From a virus (Duplodnaviria > Heunggongvirae > Uroviricota > Caudoviricetes): a stretch of 11,735 nucleotides of DNA. The stretch lies in IMG/VR virus record IMGVR_UViG_2537562192_000017; one strand, written 5' to 3'. How positions within the stretch are numbered: the stretch's first letter is position 1; every line of letters begins with the position of its first letter. This document shows, in pieces, positions 3,001 through 9,000 of this stretch. The position numbers were made by a program.

Positions 3001-6000
3001 CACATCAAGTACTTTTTCTGCCGTCGTCAGCATTGCCTGTCGGCAGGCGTTCCAGCCGTTGACATAGTGACGTGTTGCATCCCATGAAACCTGCACATCA
3101 GGGTAAGCATCCTGTTCTGTTCTCACTGGCGGTATCTGAGGAACAGTGAATAGTGGACTGACGATATATTTATCCAGAGAGCCTCCCCGCTCTTCTGCAA
3201 GACTTTCCCACGATGTCATTGTGGGGACCCTGTAACCTGCTTTTTTGTGCGTATACATCCATGCCACTCTGCCGTTATCATCTGCGGCGGCAATGCGCTG
3301 CCAGGCAGGATAAAGCGGGGTGTATGTTTCTCTGTCATTACGGGCGTCAGGCATGGCATCAATACTGCAAACTTCCCCCGTAAGGTTATTCAGCCAGGCC
3401 TTCGGGCTAATCTCTGACGTTACGATTTCATCCAGTTTTTTCTCCAGATTTTCTATGTGACTGATTAGCGCAAGGATAACTGGCGGAGTGGCAAGGGAGT
3501 GAAATGCTTCCAGATCACATCCCTTGTCTCCATATACGGTATTTTGTGCGGCGTCACGCAGTGCTTTCAGATCAGCTTCTTTCATCGTTCAGACTCCCTT
3601 GTTGCTGTTTTGTAGGCGCGCAGGATGTCGCGTGTTTTTCCTGATAATGACGACTTAACCAGGAAAAAGCCGCTCCGGCTTTCTGTGATGTCCGGCGTGC
3701 ACAGAAGTACCGCATCAACGACACGATTATGTTTTCGCAATGTCAGGCGGGAACTGGTGATAATCAGTTTTGCCTGTTCGCCGTAATCGGTGAATGAAAT
3801 AATCATCTGATGGCGATCTCCGTTATGAAAGTGTTCCTGCTGGTTCAATGCTGATAATTTCTGCTGCAATAAGCATACCTGCCAGCCATGCTTCGCCGAG
3901 CATGTCCTCATCCGTACATGCAAGATCACCGATCTGTATTGTGGCCATAATGTTAGTTTCACCGTAAGCGTACAGCCTGAACCGTCTGGTCAGAATCTGA
4001 CGAATTAGACAAAGTGGTGTCCACCAAATAAGTAGTGGGAACCAAAGTATCAGATATGCAGAAAAATGTGACTCCCGGCAGGCGAAAAGGCTGCCCTAAT
4101 TATCCTCCCGAATTTAAACAGCAGCTCGTTGCTGCCTCCTGTGAACCCGGGATATCCATCTCAAAACTTGCTCTTGAAAATGGCATTAACGCCAATCTGT
4201 TGTTCAAATGGCGACAACAATGGCGCGAGGGAAAACTGCTATTACCTTCTTCAGAGAGCCCCCAGCTACTTCCTGTGACTCTCGATGCCGCTGCCGAACA
4301 GCCAGAATCGCTCGCAGAGGCCCCGGAAACCCTCAGTATCAGCTGTGAGGTAACGTTCCGGCACGGGACGCTCCGCTTCAATGGCAATGTCAGCGAAAAG
4401 CTCCTGACTCTGCTGATACAGGAACTGAAGCGATGATCCCGTTACCTTCCGGGACCAAAATTTGGCTGGTTGCCGGTATCACCGATATGAGAAATGGCTT
4501 CAACGGCCTGGCTGCGAAAGTACAAACGGCGCTGAAAGACGATCCCATGTCCGGCCATGTTTTCATTTTCCGGGGCCGCAGCGGCAGTCAGGTTAAACTG
4601 CTGTGGTCCACCGGTGACGGACTGTGCCTCCTGACCAAACGGCTGGAGCGTGGGCGCTTCGCCTGGCCGTCAGCCCGTGATGGCAAAGTGTTCCTTACGC
4701 AGGCGCAGCTGGCGATGCTGCTGGAAGGTATCGACTGGCGACAGCCTAAGCGGCTGCTGCCCTCCCTGACCATGCTGTAAATCTCTTTATCCTGGTTGTC
4801 ACAGAATAAGCCCGGTAAAATACGGGCTTATGAACGACATCTCTTCTGACGACATCTTCCTGCTGAAACAGCGCCTGGCCGAACAGGAAGCGCTGATCCA
4901 CGCCCTGCAGGAAAAGCTGAGCAACCGGGAGCGCGAAATAGACCATCTGCAGGCGCAGTTGGATAAACTCCGCCGGATGAACTTCGGCAGTCGTTCCGAA
5001 AAAGTCTCCCGCCGTATCGCACAAATGGAAGCCGATCTGAACCGGCTTCAGAAAGAGAGCGATACGCTGACTGGTAGGGTGTATGACCCGGCAGTACAGC
5101 GTCCGTTGCGTCAGACCCGCACCCGTAAGCCGTTCCCTGAATCACTACCCCGTGACGAAAAGCGACTGTTGCCTGCGGCGCCGTGCTGCCCGAACTGCGG
5201 CGGTTCACTGAGCTATCTGGGCGAGGATACCGCCGAACAGCTGGAGTTGATGCGTAGCGCCTCCGGGTTATCCGGACGTCGGGAAAAACATGCCTGTACT
5301 CAGTGCGATGCCATCGTGCAGGCACCTGCACCTTCGCGGCCCATCGAGCGGGGTATCGCCGGACCGGGGCTGCTGGCCCGCGTGCTGACCTCGAAGTATG
5401 CAGAGCACACCCCGCTGTATCGCCAGTCAGAAATATACGGCCGGCAAGGTGTGGAGCTGAGGCGTTCACTGCTGTCGGGCTGGGTGGATGCATGCTGCCG
5501 GCTGCTGTCTCCGCTGGAAGAGGCGCTTCATGGCTATGTCATGACTGACGGCAAACTCCATGCCGATGATACCCCGGTCCAGGTACTGCTGCCGGGTAAT
5601 AAGAAGACGAAGACCGGGCGGTTGTGGGCGTATGTTCGTGATGACCGCAATGCCGGGTCAGCGTTGGCACCTGCAGTGTGGTTCGCTTACAGCCCGGACA
5701 GAAAAGGCATCCATCCGCAGACTCATCTTGCCTGCTTCAGCGGTGTGCTGCAAGCGGATGCGTACGCCGGGTTCAACGAGCTTTATCGCAATGGTGGGAT
5801 AACGGAAGCTGCCTGCTGGGCTCATGCCCGCCGAAAGATCCACGATGTGCACGTCCGCATCCCGTCAGCACTGACGGAAGAAGCCCTGGAGCAGATCGGT
5901 CAGTTGTACGCCATAGAGGCGGATATAAGGGGAATGCCGGCAGAGCAGCGGCTTGCTGAACGTCAGCGAAAAACGAAACCGTTGTTGAAATCCCTGGAAA

Positions 6001-9000
6001 GCTGGTTGCGTGAAAAGATGAAGACCCTGTCGCGACACTCAGAGTTGGCGAAGGCGTTCGCGTACGCACTTAACCAGTGGCCGGCACTGACGTACTATGC
6101 GAACGATGGCTGGGTGGAAATCGACAACAACATCGCTGAAAATGCCCTGCGGGCGGTCAGTCTGGGTCGTAAAACTTCCTGTTCTTCGGCTCTGACCATG
6201 GTGGTGAGCGGGGAGCGCTACTGTACAGCCTGATCGGGACGTGCAAACTGAATGACGTGGATCCAGAAAGCTACCTTCGCCATGTGCTTGGCGTCATAGC
6301 AGACTGGCCGGTCAACCGGGTCAGCGAACTGCTTCCGTGGCGCATAGCACTGCCAGCTGAATAACACATCCCCGTCAATACGGCCCTCGCTGTACGCTTA
6401 CGTTTCACCGGTATATTCATCCTGTGCTTCTTCATACGGCAGGTTTTCATAAAGGTTTTCAATTGCGCAGGTTATTACATCCAGTCCCGTCAGATTGCCG
6501 ACAACGTCCACTTCAAATGTTTCGCGGTACTCCCATTGCCCGAGTGTCAGACGAACCGTCTGTCTTGCCATGCGCCCGCATAATGTCATGTTCGGGTCGT
6601 AGTTCATGATTGCCGCAGTAGTGCTATTCATGTTCTGCCTCCGGTGTGTAAATAGCTTTGTCGTGTTTAAATTCACCGTTCCAGTTTTTCTTCATAGGGA
6701 GTTCACCGTTCATGTAAAACTGGTATAAACGGTGGCATCCTTTTTCCAGCAATACGGGGGTGAATTTCGTGAATGTTGCTTTCCCGTGTGGAGTGATCTG
6801 TACTGCTTCTTCGGTCAGGTATCTGTCACGGGCATAAGAGGCCGTGCGCCAGCGGGGTGTTTTCTCCGGATCGCGTTGTTCGTTGAATACCCATTTTCGG
6901 CCAGACAGCCACCACATTATCTGGCTGGTATTTACGCCGTTCAGCGCACGGCAGAACTGGGGAACAGTCATGCCTTTAGAGAAATGTTTTTCCAGACTGT
7001 CTACGGTTGCAGAGAGCGTTTTATTTTCCAGGGCCATAGCTTCAGCCCGTTCTTCGGCCTCAATAACCATCAACGCGAGTTCCTTGCGAGTGAGTACGCG
7101 CTGAACATCGATGTTTTCCCGCTGAGTGAAGTAGAACTCCACAAGGTCTTCGTGATAGTTCCACGCCTGATCCGTTTCCAGCAATTTTGCGTGGTTGGCT
7201 GCGCCGCGTTCGGTCCAGAGGATGAGGGATCGAACATTGCTGGCAATTTTCACAGAGTAGCTTTGAGATACTCTGTGCTTAAGTTCACGTAGTTCATCGC
7301 CTTCCAGCAAAAAATAATGCTTTCCAACAACGAATCGTTCTTCGTTTCGGGAATGATTCTGGCGAATACGGATTGGTGTTGCTCCATAACCTGCCGCCAG
7401 TTGTTCAGTGGTCACAACGCGTTGACCGCGATATTCGATAATTTGCAAATCACGGGCTGCCACCGGCACAAGTTCAGTTGATTTTTTCATCATTACACCT
7501 CACGAAAAGCTGATTAGTGGAACACTCTGGTTTCCGGTTCTGAGTTGTCAGTGGCTTCACTGATAAGCCCATCCAGAATCATGTGCATCGCTCTGTAACC
7601 TTCCATTGTGATGCCGGTTTTTTCGCCGTCGCCCAGAGCGCCGGTGAATGCTTTGTACATAAGAATGCTTTTGAGCAGCCCTGATTCCGCTCCGTAAGTT
7701 TCTATGAGTGCCCATTCCATATAGTTCTGCATAGCGAGACGTAATGGTTTCAGGTAGATTGTCATGCCACCGTTGTGGCCTCTGTACATGGTGCCCTTGT
7801 CTGTACCGCCATTCTCGTTAAGCACTTCGGTCCAGCCGTTTCTGGTGAGCTGTTCAGAGAAGAACATGGCGGTATAAAGCCAGCGCCAGTACATGATTGT
7901 CTTTTCCGGCGCGAGCTCACCTGTCATGCCTTTTTCTTCTGCTTCACTGATGCAACACACTATTTCCAGACCATGCCAGATCGGCTCGTCAAAACAGCCT
8001 TCATCGAGCATTTCCAGTGCTTTGTTGATATCAAGCAGTCCGTAAGGTGTGTGGATACCTTCAGCGGTAAGAAAAAATAACTGTTCAGTTGCAGTCATGG
8101 TTTGCTCTCTTCTTAAATGGTCTTTGCGCGACAAGCCGGCAATACTGATCAATCCAGGCGTTGTATTTTTCCATCCAGGCATCAAACTGTTTTCTGCGTG
8201 CAAGGATGCGCAACAGGCGATAAAAACAACGCCCGTGAGCTCTGTAGTATTCGGGCGTAATTTCTCCCGGATGAAAGACTTCTCCATATTCCGGATGCAT
8301 CAGGCGCTGGTCAGGCAGACGTTTTTCAAAACCTGAACTTTCGAATACCTTCGTTGTCATAAAATGAGCGAGATGTATGATGGCCGTTTTTCGCGTGAAG
8401 CATTTCTTAACTTGTCCGTGGCGGCAGACTCTGTAAACAGGGCCGCAATCGAGTTCGTATTTATGAAAAGCACGGTCGATTCCGGCATTATTTATTGCAC
8501 TGTATTCCGCATCACTGAAGAAAGGTGGAAATACGATGTATCCTTCCATTGTCAGCGCCAGAACGCGCGGATCGGTTTCTGTCAGCCATTCGTTTTCTGT
8601 GAATTCTTCAGAATTAATTTCAATGATTTCAGGTTCTTCTTTCATGGTTACTCCGTGTTCATCCGGTGTTAATTACTTTTATTCACTCTGAGCGCAGCCA
8701 GAAGATGTGGCTCAGCAATTCGTTTGTTGCGATATATCTGTGATACAGCCTGGCCTTTTCAGGTTGTAAAAATCCCCGACAATAAAGCTGTAAATTAATT
8801 ACTGTTCTTAAATAATGTTATTCGTTTTCAGTCCGGCACAGATGCTTTTCTGCTTTGTCTGCTGTACAGGATAATGAGCGGAAAAGACAATTCATCATGT
8901 TTAGCGCATCTGGTGAACCAATATCACCGCTGTCAATAATCACCTGTAACAAAGACAGGCTTTCTGTTATCTCGCAGTGGACATTATCGAGTACTTCAAC

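What the first reader, a model, noticed from the sequence alone, without database searches (positions are those of the whole stretch)
3956..6409. Recent IS66-family insertion with intact 8-bp target duplication splitting a phage early gene
13-bp perfect terminal inverted repeats (GTAAGCGTACAGC) at 3964 and 6401 are flanked by identical GTTTCACC octamers. Deleting 3964-6409 in silico restores one uninterrupted 120-codon ORF (6631 down to 3823) that is translationally coupled to both neighbours. Perfect duplication and clean restoration indicate a recent event, and give an exact 'empty site' to test.
Basis: seen in the sequence. Interest (0 to 1): 0.55.

Follow-up and report, generated by a model that had tools for sequence, protein, structure and literature searches.

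The report
ISEc8 insertion splitting a prophage gene

Summary
A 2,438-bp element (3964-6401) has perfect 13-bp terminal inverted repeats, GTAAGCGTACAGC. It is flanked by identical GTTTCACC octamers at 3956-3963 and 6402-6409. It carries tnpA, tnpB and tnpC and is 99.8% identical to RefSeq-annotated ISEc8.

Removing 3964-6409 restores a 120-codon minus-strand ORF. An 80-nt stretch across that restored junction occurs exactly in E. coli 2013C-3033, where the same 120-aa protein is annotated as a DUF5406 family protein. Among 5,426 complete E. coli genomes, 8 have the empty site and 4 have the insertion. Full-length homologues occur in phiP27-like Stx phages, next to int.

Three points need correcting or adding:
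- The window's tnpC carries four private 1-nt deletions and ends at 467 aa instead of 512. This is either a dead copy or sequencing error.
- Only the upstream neighbour overlaps the gene, by 8 nt. The downstream gene starts 16 nt after the stop.
- The insertion is carried by at least four other sequenced strains, most simply by common descent, and is not private to this source.

The function of DUF5406 stays unknown. Verdict: a real, evolutionarily recent, already known kind of event. Interest is low.

The parts
3956..3963 (.). Left copy of the 8-bp target-site duplication, GTTTCACC
   Evidence: The octamer occurs once at the empty site in strain 2013C-3033.
3964..6401 (+). ISEc8 (IS66 family) insertion sequence. 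It is 2,438 bp here and 2,442 bp in intact copies. Its genes lie on the + strand, opposite to the prophage operon.
   Evidence: 99.8% identity over 100% of the length to RefSeq-annotated 'IS66-like element ISEc8'; four 1-nt deletions relative to the same insertion in NZ_CP027340.
3964..3976 (+). Left terminal inverted repeat, GTAAGCGTACAGC. It is perfect for 13 nt. The imperfect match continues to about 3985, giving 18 of 22 element bases (the reported 23-nt arm, 83% complementary, starts one flanking base earlier, at 3963).
   Evidence: I1
4056..4436 (+). tnpA, the IS66 accessory protein (126 aa with the RefSeq start; HTH_Tnp_1 domain)
   Evidence: NF047595, 97.9 bits against a cutoff of 74
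4433..4780 (+). tnpB, the IS66 accessory protein (115 aa). It overlaps tnpA by 4 nt (ATGA).
   Evidence: PF05717, 131 bits; NF033819, 120 bits
4830..6364 (+). tnpC, the IS66 DDE transposase, damaged in this window. The ORF ends at 6233 (467 aa), whereas intact copies give 512 aa ending at the position equivalent to 6364. Three 1-nt deletions fall at 5261-5280. They change 6 residues and remove 1, in the tail of the stretch aligned to Pfam zf-IS66. A run of five A is reduced to four at 6171-6174. That shifts the frame after residue 448 and removes the last 64 residues.
   Evidence: NF033517: 385 bits here, 459 bits for the intact copy
6389..6401 (-). Right terminal inverted repeat (GCTGTACGCTTAC on the + strand)
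6402..6409 (.). Right copy of the 8-bp target-site duplication, GTTTCACC
6398..6631 (-). 5' fragment of the split DUF5406 gene. It encodes residues 1-77, then stops at a TAA supplied by the GTAA of the IS end (GGT GAA ACG TAA).
   Evidence: RefSeq marks the equivalent as a pseudogene, 'DUF5406 family protein, missing C-terminus'.
3823..3963 (-). 3' fragment of the split DUF5406 gene (codons 76-120 plus the stop; codons 76-77 lie in the duplicated octamer)
   Evidence: RefSeq pseudogene 'missing N-terminus'.
6624..7493 (-). Upstream neighbour: a protein with an ORF6N domain, similar to anti-repressors. Its stop overlaps the DUF5406 ATG by 8 nt.
3582..3806 (-). Downstream neighbour: a 74-aa protein of unknown function (PHROG 1001). 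It starts 16 nt after the DUF5406 stop and is preceded by GGAG.

Best explanation
A copy of the known insertion sequence ISEc8 (IS66 family: tnpA, tnpB and DDE transposase tnpC) transposed into codon 77/78 of a 120-codon DUF5406 gene. That gene lies in the minus-strand operon that runs from the repressor/operator region to xis-int. The prophage is lambdoid and sits next to rcsB in an E. coli chromosome.

Shown here:
- The element's identity.
- Its ends and the 8-bp GTTTCACC duplication.
- The exact empty site in a related strain.
- The intact ancestral gene.
- A presence/absence polymorphism among near-identical prophages.

From established knowledge of DDE transposases: the transposase made staggered cuts 8 bp apart in the target, and repair of the gaps produced the GTTTCACC duplication.

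Consequences that can be read from the sequence:
- The gene is split into a 77-aa N-terminal stub and a 3' remnant. The stub ends at a TAA supplied by the IS terminus.
- In a confident AlphaFold model of a homologue that is 78% identical, the cut removes the last three beta-strands and one helix. The protein is therefore almost certainly inactivated.

Inferred, not shown: 2.4 kb of DNA now sits inside the operon, with the IS genes pointing the other way and no sign that this strand is translated. This probably reduces expression of the downstream genes (a 74-aa ORF, a 300-aa ORF, xis and int) from the early promoter, unless the phage has antitermination.

The event is evolutionarily recent. 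It most likely predates the source strain, because four other sequenced strains share it.

The window's own copy has four 1-nt deletions in tnpC. If they are real, this copy cannot move itself, but other ISEc8 copies could still move it because both ends are intact. Sequencing error is equally plausible.
For: - Ends and duplication: 13-bp inverted repeats, 8-bp duplication and the restored 120-codon ORF.
- Element identity: 99.8% identical over its full length to RefSeq 'IS66-like element ISEc8'. It occurs in 4,230 of 5,426 complete E. coli genomes.
- Protein families: Pfam HTH_Tnp_1, TnpB_IS66, DDE_Tnp_IS66 and LZ_Tnp_IS66. NCBIfam IS66 TnpA, TnpB and transposase, all above their cutoffs.
- Empty site: the 80-nt restored junction is found exactly in NZ_CP027323. 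The protein annotated there (WP_032309120.1, DUF5406) is 100% identical to the restored protein. The restored window differs from that prophage at 5 positions in 9,289 nt.
- Population count: 8 genomes with the empty site, and 4 with the same left junction at 100% identity. Five IMG/VR contigs have the empty junction and none has the occupied one.
- The restored gene is real: Pfam DUF5406 at E = 4e-20 and PHROG 3409 at E = 1e-44. There are 42 homologues. Those not themselves marked partial cover 89-100% of the query, spanning both halves. phiP27-like Stx phages carry it next to int.
- Recent activity: other ISEc8 copies differ from this site's copy by 0-1 nt, and 3 of 4 have 8-bp duplications.
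- Structural effect: the AlphaFold model has pLDDT 82, and the break falls at the start of strand 77-85.
- Operon context: all genes from about 10,370 down to 696 are on the minus strand and tightly packed. Operator-like repeats flank the LexA-family repressor gene.
Against: Nothing contradicts the core reading. The caveats are these.

- The four private deletions in tnpC are an excess over the two substitutions seen in the 9.3 kb of flanking DNA. They are found in no other sequence searched. They sit awkwardly with 'recent and intact' and may be sequencing or assembly errors in a multi-copy repeat.
- No expression data exist. The polarity on xis/int, and even the label 'early gene', are inferences. 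The only terminator-like site on the minus strand inside the IS is weak.
- The function of DUF5406 is unknown, so the consequence of losing it cannot be stated.
Confidence: 0.96

Rival explanations
1. The insertion is ancestral, and the 'empty' sites in other strains arose by precise excision of ISEc8 that removed one copy of the duplication.
For: An empty site is formally compatible with precise excision. Only 12 complete genomes carry this allele.
Against: Empty sites occur in the more divergent versions of the prophage: the junction is 97.5-98.8% identical, and the flanks are down to 98.3% identical. Every more distant homologue, in phiP27-like phages, Citrobacter, Salmonella and E. albertii, is an uninterrupted gene. 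The occupied copies share near-identical flanks, with 2 substitutions in 9.3 kb. Precise excision of DDE insertion sequences is rare (established knowledge).
Confidence: 0.02
2. The same site was hit independently in the window's source and in the other four strains. On this view it is an ISEc8 hotspot rather than one inherited event.
For: IS66-family target preferences are poorly known. ISEc8 is highly active in these lineages, with a median of 4 and up to 46 matching places per genome.
Against: Position, orientation and duplication are identical in all cases. The flanking prophage is 99.9% identical. The duplications of other copies (ACTGAAAC, GGGCATAT, TGTAAAAA) show no obvious shared target motif with GTTTCACC.
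Confidence: 0.03
3. The junctions are an assembly artefact, with an IS copy misplaced into the prophage by repeat mis-assembly.
For: The window's IS copy carries four 1-nt deletions seen nowhere else. That hints at imperfect consensus quality in this repeat.
Against: Four independent complete genomes from the USA and Switzerland have the identical left junction, and three of them also have the right junction. A perfect 8-bp duplication is the signature of real transposition and is not expected from mis-assembly.
Confidence: 0.01
4. Sub-question about the element itself: the four 1-nt deletions in tnpC are real. This copy would then be a decaying, non-autonomous ISEc8 rather than an intact element sequenced with errors.
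For: Three of the deletions cluster within 19 nt and together restore the reading frame, with a net loss of 3 nt. That is what one might expect if they were tolerated as a set. The fourth lies in a run of A, which is a natural hotspot for slippage.
Against: All four differences inside the IS are deletions, while the flanks show only two substitutions in 9.3 kb. The variant is absent from 12,147 matching places in complete E. coli genomes, from the metagenome contigs and from the species-representative genomes. Deletion-only errors in repeats are typical of consensus errors.
Confidence: 0.4

Closest known systems
ISEc8 (IS66 family), as annotated in RefSeq E. coli genomes. By my own knowledge it was first described in E. 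coli O157:H7 EDL933.
   Same: 99.8% nucleotide identity over the whole element. It has the same tnpA-tnpB-tnpC order, the same ends beginning GTAAGCG and the same 8-bp target duplication.
   Different: The window's copy is 4 nt shorter (2,438 against 2,442 bp) and its tnpC is frameshifted.
The same insertion in E. coli 2015C-3121 (NZ_CP027340), 2012EL-2448 (NZ_CP027586), 2018-166 (NZ_CP075632) and STEC2018-553 (NZ_CP075665)
   Same: Identical insertion point, orientation and left junction. PGAP already annotates the two DUF5406 halves as pseudogene fragments.
   Different: Those copies have an intact 512-aa TnpC. 2015C-3121 differs from the window by two further substitutions. In STEC2018-553 the DNA to the right of the IS has been replaced.
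Empty-site allele: the rcsB-adjacent prophage of E. coli 2013C-3033 (NZ_CP027323), protein WP_032309120.1
   Same: The 80-nt restored junction and the 120-aa protein are both 100% identical. The flanks differ at 5 of 9,289 positions.
   Different: It has no IS and a single copy of GTTTCACC.
IS679 and IS66, the founding members of the IS66 family (Han et al. 2001 J Bacteriol 183:4296; Gourbeyre et al. 2010 Res Microbiol 161:136). These are cited from memory and from the reference list seen. Neither paper could be read here.
   Same: Three-ORF organisation, DDE TnpC, 8-bp duplication and ends beginning GTAAGCG.
   Different: They are different elements of the family. No sequence comparison with them was run here.
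DUF5406 genes of phiP27-like Stx2-converting phages
   Same: 75-76% amino-acid identity over residues 2-116. They occupy the same position close to int on the int-proximal arm.
   Different: Different prophage backbone: the rest of the window has almost no nucleotide match in the phage collection.

Membership tests
IS66 family insertion sequence | Three consecutive genes tnpA, tnpB and tnpC, with tnpA and tnpB overlapping | tested here: met
   tnpA is 4056-4436, tnpB is 4433-4780 (a 4-nt overlap) and tnpC starts at 4830. Pfam PF01527, PF05717 and PF03050 match. NCBIfam NF047595, NF033819 and NF033517 all score above their cutoffs.
IS66 family insertion sequence | DDE transposase of the IS66 type (TnpC) with leucine-zipper and zinc-finger N-terminal regions | tested here: met
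   PF03050 at 339 bits and PF13007 at 54 bits. PF13005 (zf-IS66) scores only 21 bits, below its cutoff of 27.3; the tail of its aligned stretch overlaps the segment altered by the three deletions. The C-terminal 64 residues are lost to a frameshift, so the protein belongs to the family but is damaged here.
IS66 family insertion sequence | Terminal inverted repeats beginning 5'-GTAAGCG (a family trait, from my own knowledge of the IS66 literature) | tested here: met
   GTAAGCGTACAGC at both ends, perfect for 13 nt, with 18 of 22 element bases matching when extended.
IS66 family insertion sequence | 8-bp target-site duplication | tested here: met
   GTTTCACC on both sides. It is present once at the empty site. 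Three of four other ISEc8 copies also show 8-bp duplications.
IS66 family insertion sequence | Demonstrated transposition | not testable with these tools
   The only evidence is indirect: a presence/absence polymorphism and near-identical copies at many sites.
ISEc8 (the specific element) | Near-identity to the reference element (the ISfinder convention, from my own knowledge, is roughly 95% nucleotide identity or more) | tested here: met
   99.8% identity over 100% of the length to copies that RefSeq/PGAP names 'IS66-like element ISEc8 family transposase'. The ISfinder reference sequence itself was not available, so the name rests on the RefSeq annotation.
DUF5406 (Pfam PF17400) / PHROG 3409 | Profile match above the curated threshold over the full domain | tested here: met
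   The restored protein scores 72.6 bits against a cutoff of 25, matching residues 10-114 to profile positions 1-116 of 116. PHROG 3409 matches at E = 1e-44. Conserved columns lie on both sides of the break.
Early-left (pL-type) operon gene of a lambdoid prophage | Located on the strand and path from the repressor/operator region to xis-int | tested here: met
   The LexA-family repressor gene is at 10443-11150(-), flanked by operator-like repeats. All genes down to xis (2019-2273) and int (696-1985) are on the minus strand and tightly packed.
Early-left (pL-type) operon gene of a lambdoid prophage | Transcribed early after induction from a repressor-controlled promoter | not testable with these tools
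   There are no expression data. The promoter scan found no consensus promoter in 3500-6900.

The most novel reading that the evidence does not exclude
The insertion may matter for more than one small gene. It puts 2.4 kb of oppositely oriented DNA, with no sign of translation on that strand, into the operon that leads to xis and int. In this lysogen rcsB starts only 44 nt after the int stop, on the same strand. Its native upstream DNA (the end of rcsD) has been replaced by phage DNA. The ISEc8 insertion could therefore both lock the prophage in place, through reduced xis/int expression on induction, and change read-through transcription into the envelope-stress regulator gene rcsB. A separate possibility is that DUF5406 is a toxic or anti-defence early gene whose loss was selected.
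Probability: 0.08. Interest if true: 0.35.

Novelty: already known. Interest (0 to 1): 0.1.

Why it matters
It matters little beyond bookkeeping. ISEc8 is one of the commonest insertion sequences in Shiga-toxin-producing E. coli, and this very insertion is already annotated in four RefSeq genomes.

Its practical uses are modest:
- It is a clean lineage marker with exact occupied and empty junctions, suitable for PCR typing.
- It is a natural knockout of a DUF5406 gene, which could be compared with empty-site strains.
- It is a reminder that IS traffic erodes the early regions of prophages.

Tried and rejected
- **Submitting the restored protein for structure prediction.** I used P0002, a homologue that is 78% identical, instead.
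- **Finding the tnpC deletion variant elsewhere**, to decide between real mutation and error. It is absent from complete E. coli genomes, metagenome contigs and species-representative genomes. This remains unresolved.
- **Finding the occupied junction in IMG/VR.** None was found. Five contigs carry the empty junction.
- **Reading the primary IS66-family papers.** Neither was held, so the family definitions rest on my own knowledge.
- **Serotype or lineage of the occupied strains from the literature.** Nothing useful was found.
- **Terminator scan for a polarity mechanism.** Only one weak minus-strand site lies inside the IS, which is no more than the shuffled sequences give. Rho-dependent polarity is therefore an inference only.

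
Full report
**1. Checking the observation**

- GTAAGCGTACAGC lies at 3964-3976, and its reverse complement at 6389-6401.
- GTTTCACC directly abuts both, at 3956-3963 and 6402-6409.
- Joining 3823-3963 to 6410-6631 on the minus strand gives 363 nt: 120 codons and a stop, with no internal stop.

A repeat scan ranks this pair as the best inverted repeat in the window (23 nt at 83% when extended). The same scan shows another perfect 13-nt inverted repeat at 7896-7908 / 8879-8891. The inverted repeat alone is therefore what chance would give in 11.7 kb. What makes the finding secure is the combination of three things: identical 8-mers abutting both ends (about 1 in 65,536), IS66-type genes between them, and the external evidence below.

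**2. What the element is**

The interval encodes three proteins.
- TnpA (4056-4436): HTH_Tnp_1, and NCBIfam IS66 TnpA.
- TnpB (4433-4780): PF05717 at 131 bits. It overlaps tnpA by 4 nt.
- TnpC (from 4830): PF03050 at 339 bits, and NF033517 at 385 bits.

The element is 99.8% identical over its full length to copies that RefSeq names 'IS66-like element ISEc8'. Matches occur in 4,230 of 5,426 complete E. coli genomes, with a median of 4 places per genome. Four other ISEc8 copies that I fetched differ by 0-1 nt from the copy at this site in strain 2015C-3121. Three of the four carry their own 8-bp duplications: ACTGAAAC, GGGCATAT and TGTAAAAA. So this is ISEc8, it makes 8-bp duplications, and it has been moving recently in these lineages.

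**3. The element is not intact in this window**

I compared the window with the same insertion in NZ_CP027340. The window's copy lacks four single bases, and all four lie in tnpC.
- Three fall within 19 nt (5261-5280). Together they change six residues and delete one, in the tail of the stretch aligned to Pfam zf-IS66. The frame is then restored.
- The fourth shortens a run of five A to four at 6171-6174. This shifts the frame after residue 448, so the ORF ends at 6233 (467 aa instead of 512).

The three-deletion variant is not found in any of 12,147 matching places in complete E. coli genomes. It is also absent from the metagenome contigs and the species-representative genomes. Outside the IS, the window differs from NZ_CP027340 by only two substitutions in 9.3 kb. 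I cannot decide between real decay and consensus error in a multi-copy repeat. I lean slightly towards error, because the changes are deletions only and confined to the repeat. Either way both ends are intact, so other ISEc8 copies could mobilise this one.

**4. The empty site and the split gene**

The 80-nt sequence across the in-silico restored junction occurs exactly in E. coli 2013C-3033 (NZ_CP027323). PGAP annotates a 120-aa 'DUF5406 family protein' there (WP_032309120.1). It is 100% identical to the restored protein. The whole restored window differs from that prophage at 5 of 9,289 positions.

Counts across the 5,426 complete genomes:
- 8 have the uninterrupted junction.
- 4 have the identical left junction.
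- 3 of those 4 also have the right junction.
- The fourth, STEC2018-553, has unrelated DNA to the right of the IS.

In the occupied genomes PGAP already labels the two halves as DUF5406 pseudogene fragments. IMG/VR has five contigs with the empty junction and none with the occupied one.

The restored protein is a genuine single gene.
- It matches Pfam DUF5406 over the whole profile, at 72.6 bits against a cutoff of 25.
- It matches PHROG 3409 at E = 1e-44.
- The protein search returned 42 homologues. Those not themselves marked partial are about 111-143 aa and cover 89-100% of the query. Invariant residues lie on both sides of the break.
- phiP27-like Stx2 phages carry a 75-76% identical gene close to int.

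That criterion is not met.

**5. Anatomy of the damage**

The break lies between codons 77 and 78. Read on the minus strand, the right junction is GGT GAA ACG TAA. The GTAA of the IS terminus supplies an immediate stop, which leaves a 77-aa stub with no foreign residues.

An AlphaFold model of a homologue that is 78% identical has pLDDT 82 and pTM 0.71. It places the break at the start of strand 77-85, so three strands and a helix of the fold are lost.

Upstream, the stop of the ORF6N gene (similar to anti-repressors) overlaps the DUF5406 ATG by 8 nt (ATGAATAG), and a GGAGG lies 6 nt before the ATG. Downstream, the next annotated gene (3582-3806) starts 16 nt after the stop. 'Coupled to both neighbours' is therefore half right.

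**6. Context and likely consequence**

All genes from about 10,370 down to int (696-1985) are on the minus strand and tightly packed. A LexA-family (CI-like) repressor gene lies at 10443-11150. It is flanked by 23-nt direct repeats and palindromes that look like operators. By gene order, DUF5406 sits in the early-left type operon that ends in xis-int. This is synteny, not expression data.

The IS genes point the other way. The insertion therefore places 2.4 kb into the operon, and I found no sign that this strand of the IS is translated. I infer some polarity on the downstream genes, including xis and int, unless the phage has antitermination. The scan found no convincing intrinsic terminator, so any polarity would have to be Rho-dependent. 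This step is not shown.

**7. Function of DUF5406**

**8. Comparison with what is known, and verdict**

This is a textbook IS66-family insertion of a named element, and four RefSeq genomes already annotate it at this very site. Every defining feature of the family that could be tested here was met: gene organisation, DDE TnpC, ends beginning GTAAGCG and the 8-bp duplication. Transposition itself cannot be tested with these tools.

- The element is specifically ISEc8.
- Its tnpC is broken in this window.
- The insertion is carried by at least four other sequenced strains and was probably inherited within a lineage, not acquired by the source strain.
- Coupling to the downstream gene is not by overlap.

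Novelty: already known. Interest: low.

The least ordinary reading left open is that the insertion alters prophage excision. It might also alter rcsB, which lies 44 nt downstream of int on the same strand with its native upstream DNA replaced by phage DNA. I give that about 8%.

Noticed in passing
window 1-760 (rcsB 1-651 on the minus strand; int stop at 696): The prophage is integrated between rcsD and rcsB. Identity to E. coli K-12 begins only at position 654, 3 nt upstream of the rcsB ATG. The rcsD 3' end and any rcsB promoter inside it are therefore displaced by the prophage. The int stop lies 44 nt upstream of rcsB on the same strand. A promoter-like site (TAAACA, 18-nt spacer, TAAAAT) lies at 709-680 on the minus strand, but the scan found no more such sites than chance would give.
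   Followed up: partly
L009 (NZ_CP075665, strain STEC2018-553) 9823-12500: This strain has the same left junction and the same ISEc8. The DNA to the right of the IS is unrelated (YadA-like and LPD38-domain genes) instead of the 5' half of the DUF5406 gene. That is the signature of a rearrangement or deletion mediated by the IS, which broke the prophage.
   Followed up: partly
L010 (NZ_CP027340 1720438-1722999): A second ISEc8 copy in strain 2015C-3121 has no target duplication: its flanks are GGTGCAAA and TATTGACG. This suggests recombination between IS copies.
   Followed up: no
L011, L012 and L013: Near-identical ISEc8 copies (0-1 nt different) split other genes, each with its own 8-bp duplication. 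The genes are subB (subtilase cytotoxin B subunit) in JNEC-KY174, the espI autotransporter in FHI_NMBU_11 and a DUF826 gene in 2013C-3033. The element is actively eroding virulence and prophage genes in these STEC strains.
   Followed up: partly
window 10366-10399 and 11124-11173: 23-nt direct repeats (10375-10397 and 11151-11173, 83% identical) and palindromes built around TTTCGAAA flank the LexA-family repressor gene at 10443-11150. They are probably the left and right operators of the immunity region.
   Followed up: no
window 5261-5280 and 6171-6174: Four single-base deletions in tnpC are private to this window. They are absent from all complete E. coli genomes, the metagenome contigs and the species-representative genomes that were searched. 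The first three together restore the reading frame. Whether they are real or errors is unresolved.
   Followed up: yes
window 7896-7908 and 8879-8891: A second perfect 13-nt inverted repeat (ATTGTCTTTTCCG) has no transposon features. It serves as a control showing that a 13-nt inverted repeat alone occurs by chance in a window of this size.
   Followed up: no
window 6624-7493 (minus strand): The upstream neighbour has an ORF6N domain and matches many PHROG 'anti-repressor' families. It also weakly matches the PADLOC candidate defence family PDC-S05 (E = 6e-11).
   Followed up: no
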